Shown here one piece after another: positions 13,740-61,749 of a DNA stretch of 64,000 nucleotides. The notes below the pieces were generated by a model, which saw only the letters and a list, made by a program, of their open reading frames with translations, had not been told where the DNA came from and did not search any database. The stretch is from contig OZ024752.1 in assembly GCA_964016885.1 (NCBI GenBank), positions 8,370,001 to 8,434,000 of the forward strand. The letters run 5' to 3'. The position numbers were made by a program, and so were the translations under genes. How positions within the stretch are numbered: the stretch's first letter is position 1; each line of letters opens with the position of its first letter. This DNA comes from Eledone cirrhosa. Its lineage: Eukaryota.

Positions 13740-15150
13740 AACAGAACACATTCACTGTTTGGTTGGTTTTCGCTTCTCGCTGTCTTTTATATATATATAT
13801 CTGCGATCTAACTTACTCGGTCCTCAATGTTGCCATTGACTGACCGGCGGTCAAAAATAATACAGATACAATATAGACAAACACATATATATATAGTTTA
13901 CATAAATCTTTCGTTGCACATCTGCAACATCGTCAGTGGTGTTATATTCATTGTTCCTCCTGTTGTGTTGTATGTCTACGCCATTTTTTTTTGTTCAGTC
14001 TGTCTATATATTTATTTATTTATTTGCTTGTTTGTTTATCTTATTTTATTTTGTCTTCTTTGCGCATGCGTTTGCGTGTGTGTATAGTGTTATGTGTGAT
14101 GTGTGACTAGTGTGTATAGTGTTGTGTCTGCTGGGTGACTAGTGTGTGTTTATGTGCTTGTGTATGTATTTATTTATCTTATTTTATTTAATTTAATTTA
14201 CTTATTTATTTATACTTCTCTTAGGTCAGTGTTGTTTGTTTGGGTGTTGTTGTTGTTCCACTCATTCTTTCTGTTTAGCTTTGGTCTTCTAATTTCTATT
14301 TCACTGGCCTCTCTGATTTGCCTATCTGCTGGGTCATTCCTATGTTTAGATATTATTCTAATTTCTATGTTGTCTATGTTACCGTCATGATGTTGTCTAG
14401 CATGTTCGTATAGTACTGACCCTTTTTTTCGTCCTTTTAGTTCCCCCCAGTGTTGGTCTATCCTTTCACCTATGCTACGAGCTGTCTCACCTATGTATGT
14501 TGTTGTCGTGTTTCTGCAAGTACCCTCTGTACATCTTATGCTATAGACTACGTTTCTAGTTTTACAGTTTATCCGGGGGTTCACCTTACATATGATACAT
14601 TTCCTATTGGTACAGTGGGTTTTCTTAAAAGGGTAGGTTTTGCTGATCAGGGATTTTATGGTGGTTCCTGGCTTTTCTACCACCTTTATTTTTAAGTGGG
14701 TCTTTCTCAGGGCCTTTCTACACTGGTTAGCTAATTTCCCTCCAGGGGTGGCGTCCACAAACATGACACTCTGATATCTCTGGTTGTCGTACCATGATGT
14801 GGCCTTCCCTATCTTATGTCTAGCCCTATCTAAGCTATTCCATGATTTGCTCCTGTATAGTGGGCAAATTCCTTTCATGTCCAGTTCTATGAGGGTCTTA
14901 TACTTTTCCATGGCTCCTTCGTATACTCTGACTCTGTCTCTTTGGTTGTAGCCAGAGAACTGCATGCGGTTGATGAAGTGTTGGATGTGTCCTTCCATTT
15001 CTGTTGGGTCGCACATGCTGGACACATTCTTCATCACTCGTACCAAATCTGCGATCAGAATATTAAACTTAGCACTACTGGACATTGCTGAGTTTTTGAG
15101 TATCAGGTATTTGGAGGCCATGGGTTTAGCATAGTGTGAGTGGAGAATAT
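13740..15150 (-). mobile_element. Penelope-like element (RT C-terminus, GIY-YIG endonuclease, 3' pseudo-LTR region)
   Basis: Minus frame encodes [27 protein letters not shown]...[13 protein letters not shown] and [13 protein letters not shown]; degenerate hammerhead-like motif ~270 nt downstream. Confidence 0.9.
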
Positions 15151-15159
15151 ATTTATATA

Positions 15160-15243
<84 letters not shown>

Positions 15244-15278
15244 TATATATATATAAATAAATATATATATATATAAAT

Positions 15279-15309
<31 letters not shown>

Positions 15310-15401
15310 AATATATATATATATAGTAGAATAATCGAGTATCGAAAAATCGGCGCACGAGTTCACGATAAACAAAATTCGAGATGAGCGGCAGAGGGCT
15401 C

Positions 15402-15592
15402 AATAATTGTTTCTACTTTAGGCACAAGGCCAGCAATCACCCAGTGCATTACTGGTACTTTATTTTATCGACCCCGTAAGGATGAAAGGCAAAGTCGACC
15501 TCGGCGGGATTTGAACTCAGATCGTAAAGGGACGTAACTATGCTGGAAAGCATGGCGTCCGACCCTCTACTGATACTGCCAATCCACCGCCC
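15402..15592 (-). mobile_element. tRNA-derived SINE, family A. Other copies: ~19176-19357-, 20320-20508-, 23830-23985-, 25090-25265-, 25590-25710-, 37905-38025+, 41742-41930-, 47821-48012+, 50310-50745+, 55030-55142-, 57680-57833-
   Basis: A box TGGCAGTATCAG and B box GAGTTCAAATCC; central GCCTTTCATCCTTACGGGGTCGATAAA...AGTACCAG resembles the Meta/Sauria-type SINE domain; more than 10 copies in the window. Confidence 0.88.
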
Positions 15593-17245: not shown

Positions 17246-18423
17246 TATATATAACTGATGTTTGGAGTGTTAAATGCGACAACTAATCATTAAACTATAT
17301 GTAATAAGAAAGTTATTTAATCCTACATCAATATAGATTAATTAGATATGTTAACAAAGGAATTCAAGAGGTGAATATAGTCTTTTTTTAAAAGGTATAA
17401 AAGCCTTTATTAAAGTATACGAGCCCTTTTTTAAAAGGTATAACAGCCCTTTTTAAAAGGTATACATCCCTTTTTAAAGGTATAATGTATGTGAAACTAG
17501 AATATCCAACGTTGTAAGACAGTGAGATGTAATTAGGTGAGGTTTGGCTGTTATTTCTAGCAGTCACCTATATGTTCCATCATATCCTTAAATATATGTA
17601 TACAACAAAACCAAGATTTCTGTGTAGTTTTAATAACAAATAACAAATAATACGAATGGAATATGATAATGTTGATAAAAATTAATTATATTTTATTACT
17701 AATCTATTTTTTCATCAACTATTTATAATTAACTAATTTAATTAGTTTCGTGTGATTTTAATTGTGAAATCTATCAGATCCACTTTGTTTTTATAATCCT
17801 TCCTAAATAATTAGTGTTTATTTTTAACAATAATTAATATACAAACCAGTGGGTTTAGATTTAATATTTAATATTAGATGTTTAAATATAGACATATATT
17901 CTAAGTTTACTATAAAAAAAACAAAAAAAAACATGTAATTCAATAAAGATATTTCTTGTAAATATTTGTCTCCTTATTTCTACAATATTACCTACTATTA
18001 CTTCCTACTATATAGTTATAAATATTAATTTTAACCATCAATCCAAACCAGTGTGTTTTATTATTTCTGGCAATATAACAATATGACCCTCCCCAAATAT
18101 AACAATAGTTATAAATATTGTTATATTTATGTGATGGTGATGTATTTGTTTTACAAGGTTTTTGGTGTGATATGTGTTGAAACAAATGTTATATTTGAGG
18201 AGGGTCATGTTATAATATTGCCAGAATAGGTTATAGTTATAAATATTTTGATATAGTTATAAATATAGCTTCCCAGTCAACTAAATACTTTTCTTTCTGA
18301 TTAATTTCTATAGATTTGATTCTTTTGTAATATATATATATATATAAATAAATGTAAGTATGTATATATAAAGTTTATTATTCAAAATATTAATAAATGG
18401 AGACATTCACATAATCAAAATAT

Positions 18424-18487
18424 GTTTTATTATATATATTTCGAAGGTACTGTGCTGTTTTTTCAGTACGTCCTCATCAGATAAAAT
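18424..18487 (-). ncRNA. minimal type I hammerhead ribozyme motif
   Basis: Minus strand: TTTTAT-CTGATGA-GGAcGTACTG..CAGTACcTTC-GAAA-TATATA-TA^ATAAAA; full core, stems I and II, palindromic stem III. Confidence 0.8.
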
Positions 18488-19131
18488 ACATGAATCGATG
18501 TATGACATACCTCAACTGTCTTGATGGTTCAATTCCAGTCTTGGCAGTATAATAAAACATTTTGATTAAGTGAATGTCTTCACTTATTAATATTATTCAA
18601 AATATTAATAACTCCAGAAAACCTACTGTAGAGTGCTTTTACTCTATTGTAAAACTATATTCAATGAGTAATCAATGAACCATATTAATATATATATATA
18701 TATAAGTTTATCCCGGGTTCAATCGGGGGTAACCACAGTAAGTAAGGTACTCAAGTATAAATATTTAATATAGAAATGGCTTCTACAGGATGATTTCTCC
18801 CAAATGAAACAGTTCTAGTCCTGTAGAAGCCATTTCTATATTATATATTCCATTCTGCTAGTTACACTACAGATGTTCACAATGGAAATATAAACACATC
18901 AATACAATTAATGATACTGTAAATAATATCAGGTTTATTCAGTTTTTATCATAAATATTGTTACATTATTGTGTTTATATGTAAATATATAAATTTCTCT
19001 GTGGTTCCTTAGAAAATACGAAGGAACTGTAATACTTTGATGTGATTTTATTTAAACAACCCAAAATATAATCACAATAGTAAATTTATAATAATTGTTT
19101 CTACTTTTGGTACTTTATTTTGTGGACCCCG

Positions 19132-33975: not shown

Positions 33976-34415
33976 ATAAAAATATATATTAAGCTATAGA
34001 AAATTAGTATTAAACCATGTAAAATGTATATTAAGCTATATAAAATGTATATTAAGCTATATAAAATGTATATTAAGCTATAGAAAATGTATATTAAGCT
34101 ATAGAAAATTAGTATTAAACCATGTAAAATGTATATTAAGCTATATAAAATGTATATTAAGCTATAGAAAATGTATATTAAGCTATAGAAAATTAGTATT
34201 AAACCATGTAAAATGTATATTAAGCTATATAAAATGTATATTAAGCAATATAGAATAAAACCTTATTCTCGTTATAATAAATCTATTGTGTCATTTTAGT
34301 GTAATGTTTGACTGTAATATCCACCAGCTGATGTACATGTTTCTCTCACATGACTACATGACCTTCTGACTAATGACTAAACTTCTTAACATCTATATAT
34401 AGATATAAATATACA

Positions 34416-34512
<97 letters not shown>

Positions 34513-34588
34513 CTGTATATGTATATCTATATATATATATATAGTGACGAAACATAAGTCAATTGCATGAACTCATAATCCTTTGTTT

Positions 34589-34644
34589 ACTGCTATATAT
34601 ATTTCGATGATAGCCATTGAATGGCTATGACCTCATCAGGCAGT
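34589..34644 (-). ncRNA. minimal type I hammerhead ribozyme motif
   Basis: Minus strand: ACTGC-CTGATGA-GGTcATAGCCAT(TCA)ATGGCTATcATC-GAAA-TATATA-TA^GCAGT. Confidence 0.82.
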
Positions 34645-34707
34645 TAGTTAGTCAGTTCTTAGATATGCCAGCTCTGTGTTTATGGTGTTGATGGTATCAG
34701 GGCCTTG

Positions 34708-34745
<38 letters not shown>

Positions 34746-34774
34746 TATCAGGGCCTTGGGATATATATATATAT

Positions 34775-35245
34775 AGAGGTACCTGGTCTTTCTACTATCT
34801 TAATATTGAGTTATGTTTATCTAGGGCCCTTCTAAATTTGTAAGCTAATTCACCTCTAGGGGTTGTATCGATGAACATTACACTCTGGTATTTATTGCTA
34901 TCATACCATGAGTTTATTCTATTAACCTTATTCCTAGTTCTTTCTATTCTATTCCAAAATTTGCTCCTATACAAGGGGCAGGTCCCATTTGTATCATTAT
35001 CTACCATTTTTTCCCATTTGGTTCTGGCTCCTCTATATACTCTGATTTTATCTCTCTGATTGTAACCAGAGAACTGCATATGACGGATGAAGTGTTGTAT
35101 GTGTCTCTCTAGTTCTTTGGGGTTGCACATGCGGGACACGTTTCTCATCACCCGTACCAAATCCGCAATCAGTATGTTGATTTTGGTATGGTCCGAAACA
35201 GCTGAGTTTCGGTGGATCAGATATTTGGAAGTCATGGGTTAGGAG
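34775..35245 (-). mobile_element. Penelope-like element fragment (RT C-terminal/linker)
   Basis: KPMTSKYLI...[10 protein letters not shown]...YQSVMFID, paralogous to 14700-15130. Confidence 0.85.
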
Positions 35246-46518: not shown

Positions 46519-46884
46519 TTATTTTAAAAGTGATCGTTTTTCTTGAAGCTTAGCAGCAGCCTTTTTCTTCATCAGTTGTAGTCTTTTATCAGCATTAGCC
46601 ATTTGCATACCACTCGAGGTCTTAGATGAGCCTTTGGTGCTGGCTTTAGCAGCCATTGTTAGAGCAGCAGCAAATAAATTTTTCTCTGAAAGGTCAAGTT
46701 TTGAACCTGAACTGCTGCTAGATTTAGATTCTTTTGATGAAGATGAGGTAGAACTGTGTTTGGTCTGTTCGGACTTGGTCAGTAAAGACTTTGACATTAC
46801 ATCAGATGTTGCCTTTCCTGACAAATTAGCTGCAAGACTGACCAGACCACTCATCGGTTTGGCTGCCATGCTGCTGGCCGCTAC
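46519..46884 (-). CDS. INTS12: Integrator complex subunit 12, coding exon 6 (last)
   Basis: TTTTAG acceptor; VAASSMAAKPMSGLVSLAA...MANADKRLQLMKKKAAAKLQEKR-stop, matching the INTS12 C-terminal KRLQxxKKKAA motif. Confidence 0.88.
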   Translation of the reverse strand, partial: VAASSMAAKPMSGLVSLAANLSGKATSDVMSKSLLTKSEQTKHSSTSSSSKESKSSSSSGSKLDLSEKNLFAAALTMAAKASTKGSSKTSSGMQMANADKRLQLMKKKAAAKLQEKRSLLK

Positions 46885-51985: not shown

Positions 51986-52410
51986 CACGAAATACACCCA
52001 GGAAAGAAGTTGTCATTAGGAAAAGAATGAAACCAAGTTAAAAAAAGAATTAAGAGGACTGTTTAGCCATGTTGAGGACAATACAACCTCTCTAGTGTTG
52101 GTGCCATGATAAAATACACCCAGTGCACTCTGTAAAATGTCTGGTGTTAGGAAAGGGATCCCTCTGTAGAAGTCATGAGAAAACTGGGATGTAAGTGAGA
52201 TGTGTCCCCACCTCCACCACCCCAGACTGTTGAAAGACAGTAGCGTGGAAAAACAGACATTAAATGTTGATGATGATAATGTCAATGATAATAATTATGA
52301 TGATCATTATGATGGTGATGATGATGATGATGATGATGCAGATGATAATAATGATGATGATGATAACGATGATTATGATGCAGATAATGATCCTTAAAGA
52401 TGCTACTTAC

Positions 52411-52769
52411 TGGCAGTTAACACAAGCGATACCAAGATCAAGAATGAAGTCAGTAGTATCCATATTATCATCACTGGAACCTAGAGTCTCTGGTTCCTTG
52501 TAAGAAGAAGATTTCTCAACAATCAACGCAGCTTTTTCTGTCTTCTCCGACTTCTCTGCAGCAGTTTTCTCCGCCAACATTTTCTCTCTTTTTTCCTTTT
52601 CTTCTTTATCCTTCAGTTCACGTTCTTTCTTACTTCTTTCTCTTTCTCGTTCTTTTTCCAACTCCCTCTCTTTCTCTTTATTCGACTTCTCCTCCTTCTC
52701 CAACGAAGAAAATAAATCCAATCTTGGTTTCTTGCTTTCTTGAAAACTTTCCATGAAGTCATGTTTGAC
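52411..52769 (-). CDS. INTS12: INTS12 coding exon 2
   Basis: CTTCAG/GTAAGT; VKHDFMESF, K/E-rich tract, DFILDLGIACVNC (PHD start). Confidence 0.92.
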
Positions 52770-54380
52770 CTGAAGATTAAAATATGAAATAGAGTACACA
52801 GGGAAACCTTGTAGATCCTTCTCCCAAAATAAACACTAATAATTGTTTCTACTTTTGGCACAAGGCCAGTAACAAATAAACACTAATAATGGTACTTGTC
52901 TAAAATCATGTCTTAAGCCAGAAGGCTCAGTAGGCCAGTGCTTATCCCGGCTTCATGGCATGAAGCAACTGAGAGTACAAGACTTCCCCTGAACAGGAGG
53001 CCAGTCCATCACAGGGTTAGATCCGCAGCTATTGCCAGTACTCATTTTCTGGCCGAATATGGCTGATTTAAATGCTAAAGGGTTAAGACAATAAGTAATG
53101 ATTTGAATAAAAAAGTCTGTCTTGTGCCTGGAGGTTCCTCAAACCAGTGCTTATCCCGGTTTCCATGGAGTAAAGACTTCCCCCTGGACAGGACACCAGT
53201 CCATTGTATGGTTACACCCCACCAGCTATTGCTGGTAGTCATTTTCAGCTGAATATACTGCAGCAACGTGAAATGAAGTGTTTTGCTCAAGAACACAACA
53301 CACAACCCAGCCCAGGAATTGGAACCCACAACATTATGTTCGTAAGTCCAACACCCTTACCACAAGGCCACACACCTCCACATAAAGGGATTTATAAGGC
53401 CCAATAATCAGACTCTGTAACCACTCCTTAAAAGAATGTCTTACACAGGCCTAAGATCATAGATTTACGGAGCTGAGAAAAATGAGATGTTGAAATGTCA
53501 ATGCCTTTCTAAAGAGGACAATGTCAGATCAATGAGGTGATTCATCATCATCATCATCATTTTACGTCTGCTTTTCCCTGCTTGCAAGGGTGGGACGGGA
53601 ACTGATTCTTGGCTTGATTTCTACAGTTGGATGCCCTTCCTAACACCAACCTCATTTACAGTGAGTGTTGGGTGCTTTTTTTCCATGGCACCTACACGTC
53701 CACTTTACAGTGTGGACTGGGTGCTTTTTTGCCGTGGCACCTACACGTCCACTTTGCAGTGGAATGATAAGGACCCCAGTCCTATCATCTCATTTCTACA
53801 GCTGAGTAAACTGGAGCAATGTGAAATAAAGTGTCTTGCTCAAGGAAACAACACATCACCCAGTCTGAGAATTGAACTCACAACCATAATTAAGTTCCAG
53901 ATATTCCCCCAATAACTTACTGCAACATTATAACAAAATGGAAGTAAATCTATTCCACATGTCACCACTGTAAATGAGACTTAAGGGTCAGTCAGCCTTG
54001 TGGTGGACAGGATGGAGAAGACATTACCCTGGAGGAAGGCAAGGGAGACATGTTTATGGAAAAAAATCTAATTCATATGCCACCACAATAAATGAAGCTT
54101 AAGGGTCAGTCCACTTCAATGTGGACAGGTGGACAGGTTGGAGAAGACATTACCCTGGAAGGTGACAAGGGAGACCCATTGGAACAGCCACTCCATCTCA
54201 CAGGGTTCGCACCTGCAGGTAATCAACTCTGCTCCGATGGCAGTGAGTAGGGATGAGGTTCAGGGGTCAACAATACTAGAAGTCACCACTGTCACGGGCC
54301 CAACCACAAACCTGAACTTGTCACAAATTCTTGTAAGAAACAATGAGAAAAATGTATTTGTAAACAGAATATAAACTTAC

Positions 54381-60604: not shown

Positions 60605-61359
60605 CCCTCCACTATCTCCATCTATTTACTATTATATTTTCATAGTAAAGGCTTTACCACACATAATATCTCACATAACATTTACATTACTCTATACATA
60701 CTATTGTATTTTCACAGTAAAGACTTTACCTCACATAATATCTCACATAACATTTACATTACTCTATATATACTATTATATTTTCATAGTAAAGGCTTTA
60801 CCTCACATAATATCTCACATAACATTTACATTACTCTATATATACTATTGTATTTTCATAGTAAAGGCTTTACCTCACATAATATCTCACATAACATTTA
60901 CATTACTCTATATATACTATTGTATTTTCACAGTAAAGGCTTTACCTCACATAATATCTCACATAACATTTACATTACTCTATATATACTATTGTATTTT
61001 CACAGTAAAGGCTTTACCTCACATAACATTTACATTACTCTATATATACTATTATATTTTCATAGTAAAGGCTTTACCTCACATAACATTTACATTACTC
61101 TATATATACTATTGTATTTTCACAGTAAAGGCTTTACCTCACATAATATCTCACATAACATTTACATTACTCTATATATACTATTGTATTTTCACAATAA
61201 AGGCTTTACCTCACATAATATCAAATCTATGATATTTTTATATTATCTATTTTGAGAACAACACCTTAACATCAGTATGAGTGGCTGGTTACAACCAGTT
61301 TGAACAAAAAGAGGTGAGAGAATTTCTCGCCAGATACGGACAATTTAAATGCTAAAGGG
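60605..61359 (+). mobile_element. piggyBac-type MITE with expanded internal array
   Basis: Degenerate left end TTAACCCT, several internal units, right end AATGCTAAAGGG-TTAA; fills most of HIKESHI intron 3. Confidence 0.88.
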
Positions 61360-61435
61360 TTAAATTTTTTGTTGTTTTGGGGACAAAGTTCTCAGTATTC
61401 TTACCCTTGTATACTTCTTTTCTTTTGTATTCCAG

Positions 61436-61749
61436 CTGAAGCATCTCTAAGTCCATTTGGAGTGATGGCAAGTCAACCAGTAAATGTATCACAGATTGGA
61501 ATATCTGTTGAGCCCCTTCAAGACTTATCTCAGCAGACCCCTGCAACAGCTGTGGCAGTGTCAAATATTGAACCCTTCATGGAGTTCTCAAAGAAAATGG
61601 TTGAAAATTTGTTCAATTTTGCTTCCTCTTTTGCCAGTAAAGCTCCTATGAATCCATCCGAAACATATATTCCATTTAGTACTCTTGAAAAGTGGTACAA
61701 CAGCTTTCTTCGGAAGATGCAGCAAGATCCATATTTTTGGAGATCATAG
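61436..61749 (+). CDS. HIKESHI: Hikeshi coding exon 4 (last)
   Basis: TTCCAG acceptor; QIGISVEP...KMVENLFNFASSF...KWYNSFLRKMQQDPYFWRS-stop; four exons join to 579 nt, 192 aa. Confidence 0.95.

What the first reader, a model, noticed from the sequence alone, without database searches (positions are those of the whole stretch)
34589..34644. Two covarying minimal hammerhead ribozymes with a TATATA stem III (here and at 18424-18487)
Seen: both minus-strand motifs have CUGAUGA, then GAAA-UAUAUA-UA at the cleavage site, and stem II begins G-C, G-U, one Watson-Crick pair, then a C-C mismatch. Their stem I (ACUGC/GCAGU vs UUUUAU/AUAAAA) and distal stem II sequences are unrelated, so structure rather than sequence is conserved. 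Each sits in a ~200-350 bp non-coding cassette bounded by (TA)n. Known: minimal type I hammerheads with palindromic stem III occur in Penelope-like pseudo-LTRs and metazoan retrozymes and can cleave as dimers. Inference: this is a family of small self-cleaving, (TA)n-associated elements, possibly making circular RNA and mobilised by the Penelope elements also present here.
Basis: partly seen in the sequence, partly recalled or inferred. Interest (0 to 1): 0.75.

Follow-up and report, generated by a model that had tools for sequence, protein, structure and literature searches.

The report
Hydra-clade Penelope end-fragment hammerheads
Both hammerhead motifs are real, but they are the end pieces of a known kind of jumping gene (Hydra-clade Penelope-like elements) and not a separate small element; this lineage has an unusual all-A/U third helix, about 44,000 genomic matches, and is predicted to cut RNA only when two copies pair.

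Summary
Both motifs are present as described and beyond chance (0 of 200 shuffles). They are not stand-alone cassettes. Site 1 is the 172-nt 5'-truncated terminal repeat (pLTR) of a Penelope-like family whose longer copies carry RT, a CxCX5C linker and a GIY-YIG-type endonuclease, up to pLTR-ORF-pLTR tandems of 3.57 kb. Site 2 is a 171-nt pLTR of a sister family (RT 51% identical) plus an inverted, tail-bearing arm whose junction differs between copies. The protein motifs fit the Hydra clade, for which hammerheads, (TA)n targeting and an octopus member are published (PMC8557442). No short tandem arrays were seen, so the retrozyme/circle reading is not supported; the Penelope fragments in the window belong to another lineage. 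What differs from published Hydra hammerheads: an (AU)4 stem III that equals the DNA target, an AUA cleavage triplet, an invariant C-C in covarying stem II, 44,018 matches (control 24), and ~90-nt tails. Copies span the cut site (94 of 100), so uncleaved RNA is likely the template. Cleavage is untested. The scan noted Hydra-clade hammerheads and their tail hairpins before, elsewhere in this genome.

The parts
34589..34644 (-). Type I minimal hammerhead, family A: stem I 34644-34640/34593-34589, first core box 34639-34633, stem II 34632-34606 with C-C at pair 4, second core box 34605-34602, (AU)4 stem III 34602-34595; predicted cut between 34594 and 34593
34544..34715 (-). Solo 5'-truncated pLTR of Hydra-clade family A (172 nt with a 4-nt duplication); starts at the family's commonest 5' end and stops at its main 3' end, 50 nt behind the cut site; no tail
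   Evidence: same 3' end in 25 of 27 and same 5' end in 11 of 27 family A loci
34743..34761 (-). 19-nt duplicate of the element's 5' end between two (TA)n runs (complex 5' junction)
34391..34543 (.). (TA)n target at the 3' end, centre of a 148-nt palindrome (arms 34391-34464 and 34465-34538)
34776..35238 (-). Fragment of an unrelated Penelope-like ORF next to the insertion (62% identical to the ORF at 14210-15412; not the parent)
18425..18486 (-). Type I minimal hammerhead, family B; predicted cut between 18431 and 18430
18378..18548 (-). 5'-truncated pLTR arm of Hydra-clade family B (171 nt), starting at the family's commonest 5' end, 68 nt before the first core box
18548..18689 (+). Inverted pLTR arm: starts inside the TA run of stem III, repeats the 3' part of the pLTR and continues into the family B tail (about 18608-18689; 95 nt in complete copies), then (TA)n

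Best explanation
Both motifs are the terminal-repeat (pLTR) hammerheads of two related Penelope-like retrotransposon families with Hydra-clade protein motifs, and the window copies are ~170-nt end fragments, likely made when each family's own RT-endonuclease copied uncleaved pLTR RNA into (TA)n DNA. Shown: linkage to the ORFs, two fixed 3' ends per family (pLTR end and tail end, about 90 nt apart), variable 5' truncation, inverted arms with copy-specific junctions, covariation of stems I and II. Inferred from the Poseidon model (PMC11167929): the two 3' ends are internal reverse-transcription starts; the pile-up of 5' ends about 70 nt before the core is the 5' end of a pLTR-initiated RNA (about 50% likely), which would explain the excess of solo fragments; full-length copies need read-through RNA over a pLTR-ORF-pLTR tandem. 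Predicted, untested: the ribozyme is nearly silent as a monomer (closing stem III costs about 2.7 kcal/mol) and would cut only when two pLTR copies pair their (AU)4 palindromes (duplex about -3.2 kcal/mol), probably with protein help, trimming tandem transcripts to unit length; the two window copies have no same-strand partner and are probably inert.
For: Family A: 6 of 27 unselected core loci run 400 nt or more upstream; L031-L034 share ORF-end-to-hammerhead sequence; 7 of 10 long-ORF loci (L109-L118) show the hammerhead on the ORF strand about 1.1-1.4 kb behind the stop; the tail runs on into the ORF start in 22 loci; L323 is hammerhead-ORF-hammerhead at 3.57 kb. Family B: upstream-extended copies carry RT, CNCX5C and YIG ORF pieces on the hammerhead's strand (L221, L223, L224, L225); L224 holds the ORF from its start between an inverted tail-bearing pLTR and a downstream pLTR. 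Sister subfamilies C, D, E are ORF-linked too (L126, L128, L355-L359: 5 of 5 D/E loci fetched). At least 16 of 29 visible unselected family B loci have an adjacent inverted arm (by eye). 94 of 100 family A copies anchored behind the cut site keep the sequence across it and 0 of 100 begin at it in (TA)n. Covariation: 12 of 16 pairs change on both sides across 13 representatives, 93% of cells paired against 34-48% for slid controls; C-C in 214 of 225 distinct copies. Energies. Published context: PMC8557442 section 11, Fig. 2 legend, Files S1-S2; PMC4209133; PMC11167929.
Against: No cleavage or expression data. Clade placement rests on motifs read by eye, not a tree; Pfam gives only one sub-threshold RVT_1 hit (E 0.001, L224) and nothing for the family A and C ORFs, and the PDB search found nothing. 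Units are 3.6-4.1 kb, longer than the published Hydra families (generally under 3 kb), and tails are 88-95 nt against the 30-40 nt described. No intact family B ORF and no copy in which the family B tail continues into the ORF was found (2 matches, both ending in TA). The 5'-end pile-ups are confounded by microhomology (a 4-nt TA match in A; a 4-nt match to the inverted arm in B), and a TATA-like box about 32 nt upstream is visible only in B. Against 'never cleaved': 2 of 22 full-length-type A copies begin at the cut site (L249, L251), about 5 of 100 B rows stop in the TA run (by eye), and 6 of 100 A rows carry a foreign head joined at the cut site (probably one event amplified).
Confidence: 0.9

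Rival explanations
1. The ~170-nt units have become non-autonomous SINE-like derivatives: a solo pLTR is itself transcribed and re-copied in trans by the Hydra RT.
For: Short copies far outnumber long ones (11 of 27 A loci start at one position; 1,469 family B core matches against 236 for a 27-mer 100 nt upstream); both window arms have nearly the same length.
Against: Solo copies lack the tail and what follows it, where the Poseidon protein binds (PMC11167929); family B solos lack the upstream TATA-like box; junctions vary per copy and 5' lengths form a continuum up to full length.
Confidence: 0.07
2. One reading: retrozyme-like small elements that self-cleave from tandem transcripts, circularise and are mobilised by neighbouring Penelope elements.
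For: Palindromic stem III suits dimer cleavage; retrozymes derive from PLE pLTRs (bioRxiv 10.64898/2026.07.22.740005); earlier unchecked scan notes report real hammerhead arrays of other families in this genome.
Against: In 83 loci only 3 same-strand neighbours lay within 1.5 kb (at 359, 1,344 and 1,351 nt; the 359-nt one is another subfamily), against 21 opposite-strand entries (pairs counted from both sides); the only same-strand repeats found span whole ORFs; copies do not begin at the cut site; the window's Penelope fragments are another lineage.
Confidence: 0.03
3. The fold is kept for a non-catalytic role (protein-binding or packaging signal) and no longer cleaves in vivo.
For: Poseidon hammerhead mutants insert normally in vitro and no RNA reads end at its cut site (PMC11167929); minimal hammerheads cleave poorly even as dimers (PMC4209133); most copies here derive from uncut RNA.
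Against: The catalytic boxes are kept with covarying stems across at least five subfamilies whose RTs are only 45-73% identical (the search pattern itself fixed the boxes, but 44,018 matches against 24 is not chance); a few 5' junctions fall at the cut site. This rival concerns function only and is compatible with the pLTR identity.
Confidence: 0.25

Closest known systems
Hydra clade of C-terminal EN+ Penelope-like elements, including Hydra-1_Obim (Craig et al. 2021, PMC8557442; section 11, passages, Files S1-S2 read)
   Same: RT then endonuclease in one ORF; RWK/RWR and DKT motifs; CxCX5C linker; CxxC and CxH around the conserved E and N; hammerhead near the 3' end; insertion in (TA)n; inverted 5'-truncated copy.
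   Different: All 26 Hydra-clade rows of File S2 have a stem III that opens A-C and closes G-U with 3-4 bp; here it is (AU)4 with an AUA triplet and an invariant C-C in stem II. Units are 3.6-4.1 kb with a 1.1-1.4 kb 3' UTR (File S1: 1.1-3.0 kb). The Hydra-1_oBim hammerhead is a different sequence.
[quoted passage not shown]
   Same: Long stem II, short stem I, palindromic stem III, mostly single dispersed motifs from truncated PLEs, opposite-strand pairs 100-700 bp apart, full PLEs with two motifs about 3 kb apart.
   Different: [quoted passage not shown]
Poseidon_Ac (Frangieh et al. 2024, PMC11167929; parts 1-2 of 4 read)
   Same: Two 3' ends defining a tail; AT-rich target; uncleaved RNA as the main template.
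   Different: Other clade; there the ORF starts inside the hammerhead, here about 240 nt behind its first core box; tails here are 88-95 nt.
Metazoan non-LTR retrozymes (PMC7229834, passages; bioRxiv 10.64898/2026.07.22.740005, parts 1-2 of 5)
   Same: Type I hammerhead with weak palindromic stem III (like axolotl HHR_Amex1); PLE ancestry.
   Different: Retrozymes are non-coding head-to-tail repeats of 150-450 bp; these families are ORF-linked and show no such arrays.

Membership tests
Type I (minimal) hammerhead | Both catalytic boxes, NUH triplet, order stem I - II - III | tested here: met
   triplet AUA
Type I (minimal) hammerhead | Covarying stems I and II | tested here: met
   (12 of 16 pairs change on both sides; relatives, so not independent events)
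Type I (minimal) hammerhead | Palindromic, unstable stem III | tested here: met
Type I (minimal) hammerhead | Match to an Rfam hammerhead model | tested here: not met
   no hammerhead family at E up to 10
Type I (minimal) hammerhead | Self-cleavage | not testable with these tools
   needs in vitro transcription
Penelope-like element pLTR | Hammerhead repeat flanks an RT-endonuclease ORF in partial tandem | tested here: met
   A: L323, 3.57 kb; C: L126, L128; D: L358. B: ORF between inverted and direct pLTR in L224; direct tandem not found
Penelope-like element pLTR | Variable 5' truncation, inverted 5' copy, tail at one end | tested here: met
Hydra clade | RWK-type and DKT motifs in RT | tested here: met
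   read by eye: C has RWK and DKT, A has DKT and RWR in the leader-continuing loci, B has RWR (L224); DKT region of B not seen in broken copies
Hydra clade | CxCX5C linker; CxxC and CxH around E and N; no CCHH | tested here: met
   read by eye: CxCX5C in A, B, C; CxxC and CxH in A and C; B shows CxxC (L221), CxH not seen
Hydra clade | Insertion into (TA)n; hammerhead present | tested here: met
Hydra clade | Generally under 3 kb (descriptive, not defining) | tested here: not met
   3.57, 3.68 and 4.1 kb units
Hydra clade | RT phylogeny groups with published Hydra families | not tested
Non-LTR retrozyme | Head-to-tail repeats of 150-450 bp, each with a hammerhead | tested here: not met
   (83 loci); listings
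Non-LTR retrozyme | Non-coding full-length unit | tested here: not met
   ORF-linked parents
Non-LTR retrozyme | Circular RNA in vivo | not testable with these tools
   needs RNA data or bench work

The most novel reading that the evidence does not exclude
This Hydra lineage has replaced the usual A-C...G-U stem III with the very dinucleotide repeat it targets in DNA, so one (AU)4 palindrome serves as a dimer-only, slippage-tunable ribozyme switch (natural expansions to eight repeats would close stem III as a monomer) and as a built-in target or junction site for the element's own enzyme; and its tens of thousands of ~170-nt solo ends are a genome-scale record of transcription start to internal RT start on uncleaved RNA.
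Probability: 0.2. Interest if true: 0.6.

Novelty: new variant of a known kind. Interest (0 to 1): 0.33.

Why it matters
The role of hammerheads in Penelope-like elements is open. This lineage gives a young (one subfamily has intact 894-aa ORFs and near-identical copies), very abundant system with one invariant design, natural stem III length variants and thousands of ends, so dimer cleavage, protein assistance and internal initiation can be tested outside the Poseidon clade. It does not add a new class of element or evidence for circular RNA.

Tried and rejected
Rfam: no hammerhead hit; microRNA hits are TA-repeat artefacts. Pfam and PDB: uninformative apart from a weak RVT_1. Antisense second hammerhead: the family A 3' end reads as a hammerhead 3' half on the plus strand (34544-34566), but no matching first box with stem II partner was found upstream in the window or in the tail; rejected. 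Fixed-structure MITE reading of site 2, suggested by 30 best BLAST hits of equal extent: rejected, because the inversion junction differs per copy and the sample was selected for that extent. The C14 pair 2.66 kb apart showed no ORF of 130 aa or more. Tail hairpin: the shared motif is visible in A, B and C, but single-sequence folds were weak (z -0.2 to -2.0) and only one of four gave the expected fold; not confirmed here. Sequencing runs: no RNA holder listed; contigs of four runs of unrecorded type, from three coded organisms, hold family A, which says nothing on expression. A scripted 5'-end census over five subfamilies was not carried out; 5'-end counts come (A) and by eye (B), so C-E remain open. 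Literature searches listed no paper on this stem III variant; figures and supplements of PMC4209133 and the bioRxiv supplements were not seen and may hold similar motifs.

Full report
Observation. Both motifs are in the sequence on the minus strand. A hammerhead descriptor finds exactly these two in the window; 0 of 200 local dinucleotide shuffles reach two hits. Predicted cuts lie after 34594 and after 18431, each behind an AUA triplet. Rfam has no hammerhead hit at either site.

Abundance. The window lies in a 3.0-Gb animal genome (G000). A pattern built from the two cores has 3,251 exact matches, control 0; a family B 27-mer has 1,469; a family A 3' 25-mer has 3,102. A general pattern (both boxes, 16-42 nt between them, (AU)4 stem III) has 44,018 matches against 24 for the reversed control. 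These are pattern matches, not curated copy numbers.

Covariation. In all loci held, 225 distinct copies fall into five main subfamilies (A-E) and a few singletons; stem II pairs 1-3 and 5-7 and stem I pairs 1-5 are paired in 94-99% of copies with different base pairs, while pair 4 is C-C in 214 of 225 (the sample is weighted to A and B). On 13 representatives, 12 of 16 pairs change on both sides, 93% of cells pair, and slid controls give 34-48%. The sequences are relatives, so this shows conservation of structure, not independent origins.

Site 1 is a pLTR fragment. Of the first 30 core loci I set aside three (one family B, one other subfamily, one misaligned). Of the other 27, 25 end at the same base 50 nt behind the cut site, followed by (TA)n; 11 start 71-73 nt before the core, as site 1 does; 6 run 400 nt or more upstream. 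The long copies lead into an ORF with RT, a CxCX5C linker and a YIG endonuclease that stops about 1.1-1.4 kb before the hammerhead (7 of 10 long-ORF loci, where the pattern missed a degenerate 5' copy in L109). A second 3' end 88 nt further on has 133 matches; 13 of the 100 listed continue into the ORF leader and nearly all others stop in microsatellite. Twenty-two leader-continuing loci were found, 8 of them with the upstream 3' UTR in place, and L323 is a hammerhead-ORF-hammerhead tandem of 3.57 kb.

Site 2 is an inverted pLTR pair. The minus arm (18378-18548) holds the hammerhead; the plus arm (18548-18689) repeats the pLTR 3' part and adds the tail. The inversion junction differs among 30 similar loci, and at least 16 of 29 visible unselected loci have an inverted arm (by eye; one of 30 was cut from view; some rows are the two arms of one insertion). 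Copies that extend upstream carry broken ORF pieces 51% (RT) and 38% (linker-endonuclease) identical to family A. No intact family B ORF was found. Subfamily C has intact 894-aa ORFs and 4.1-kb tandems; 5 of 5 D/E loci fetched hold homologous ORFs between or behind hammerheads, L358 as a 3.68-kb tandem.

Clade. Section 11 of PMC8557442 defines Hydra by RWK, DKT, CxCX5C, CxxC/CxH, lack of CCHH, (TA)n insertion and hammerheads; these motifs are seen by eye in A and C and in part in B. The supplement lists an octopus member and tabulates Hydra hammerheads, all with an A-C...G-U stem III. No tree was built, and Pfam and PDB were nearly silent. Earlier scan notes call this genome octopus-type; I did not test that. 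The Penelope fragments in the window match each other (62%) but not the parent.

Retrozyme test. Of 89 unselected loci, 83 held a strict match; three had a same-strand neighbour within 1.5 kb and none formed an array, against 21 opposite-strand entries. Retrozymes are defined by short tandem units (PMC7229834; bioRxiv 10.64898/2026.07.22.740005), so membership fails.

Mechanism. Of 100 family A copies anchored behind the cut site, 94 keep the sequence across it and none starts there in (TA)n, although stem III offers a perfect TA microhomology (by eye). Uncleaved RNA is therefore the likely template, as found in vitro for Poseidon_Ac, whose two internal RT starts define the tail. 5' ends pile up about 70 nt before the core in A (11 of 27) and B (11 of 29 at 62-68 nt, 11 shorter, 7 far longer, by eye); B has a TATA-like box about 32 nt before that point. 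I read this as a pLTR transcription start with about even odds, since microhomology could contribute. Closing stem III in a monomer costs about 2.7 kcal/mol; two (AU)4 strands pair at about -3.2 kcal/mol. Dimer or protein-assisted cutting of tandem read-through RNA is the likeliest activity, following PMC4209133 and PMC11167929. Weak hints of cleavage in vivo: 2 of 22 full-length-type copies start at the cut site (confounded by TA microhomology), about 5 of 100 family B rows stop in the TA run, and a foreign 230-nt head is joined at the cut site in 6 of 100 rows, probably one amplified event. That AUA is a tolerated hammerhead triplet is recalled, not from a call.

Papers seen: PMC8557442 abstract, passages, section 11, supplement searches and part 2 of 59; PMC4209133 parts 1-2 of 4; PMC11167929 parts 1-2 of 4; the 2026 bioRxiv preprint parts 1-2 of 5; PMC7229834 and PMC13282606 passages (the latter mentions neither ribozymes nor Hydra in its main text). 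Seven searches listed nothing on an all-A/U stem III in PLE hammerheads; unseen figures and supplements may.

Verdict. Real motif, known context: new Hydra-clade families with a variant hammerhead at very high copy number. New variant of a known kind; interest 0.33.

Noticed in passing
L270, L317-L321 (e.g. G000:C1:63235049): A recurrent 230-nt foreign head is fused at the predicted cut site to the last 50 nt of the family A pLTR (6 of 100 rows); four loci also share the downstream flank, so it is probably one insertion inside a larger repeat that then multiplied. A junction without TA microhomology at that base hints at a cleaved RNA template.
   Followed up: partly
G000:C1:87080222, C1:82184047, C1:126910122: Natural slippage variants of stem III with eight, five and three TA repeats; eight would close stem III as a monomer.
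   Followed up: partly
L119, L126-L128: Young subfamily C: intact 894-aa ORF, near-identical copies, full pLTR-ORF-pLTR tandems and inverted pairs; many further 73%-identity hits with identical scores.
   Followed up: partly
tails of families A, B, C (e.g. L325:1330-1462, window 18608-18640): A shared short motif follows the first 3' end in all three families, and a similar one follows the second end in A; noted earlier by the scan as twin hairpins. Single-sequence folds were weak.
   Followed up: partly
window 18595-18601: The 7-nt loop of the A/T hairpin at the family B pLTR end is inverted in this arm relative to other copies.
   Followed up: no
window 18760-18849: 31-bp inverted repeat, 97% complementary, beside (TA)n; similar hairpins recur in flanks of L011, L080, L081 and L270.
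   Followed up: no
window 14210-15146 and 34776-35238: Two fragments of another Penelope-like lineage, 62% identical; further copies in L085 and L222.
   Followed up: partly
window 34391-34538: 148-nt palindrome centred on the (TA)n that abuts the 3' end of site 1, with non-TA sequence mirrored on both sides.
   Followed up: no
window 46519-46884, 52407-52835 (minus) and 61318-61749 (plus): Open frames that look like host exons; the one ending in a cysteine pair resembles the start of a PHD finger (recalled, untested).
   Followed up: no
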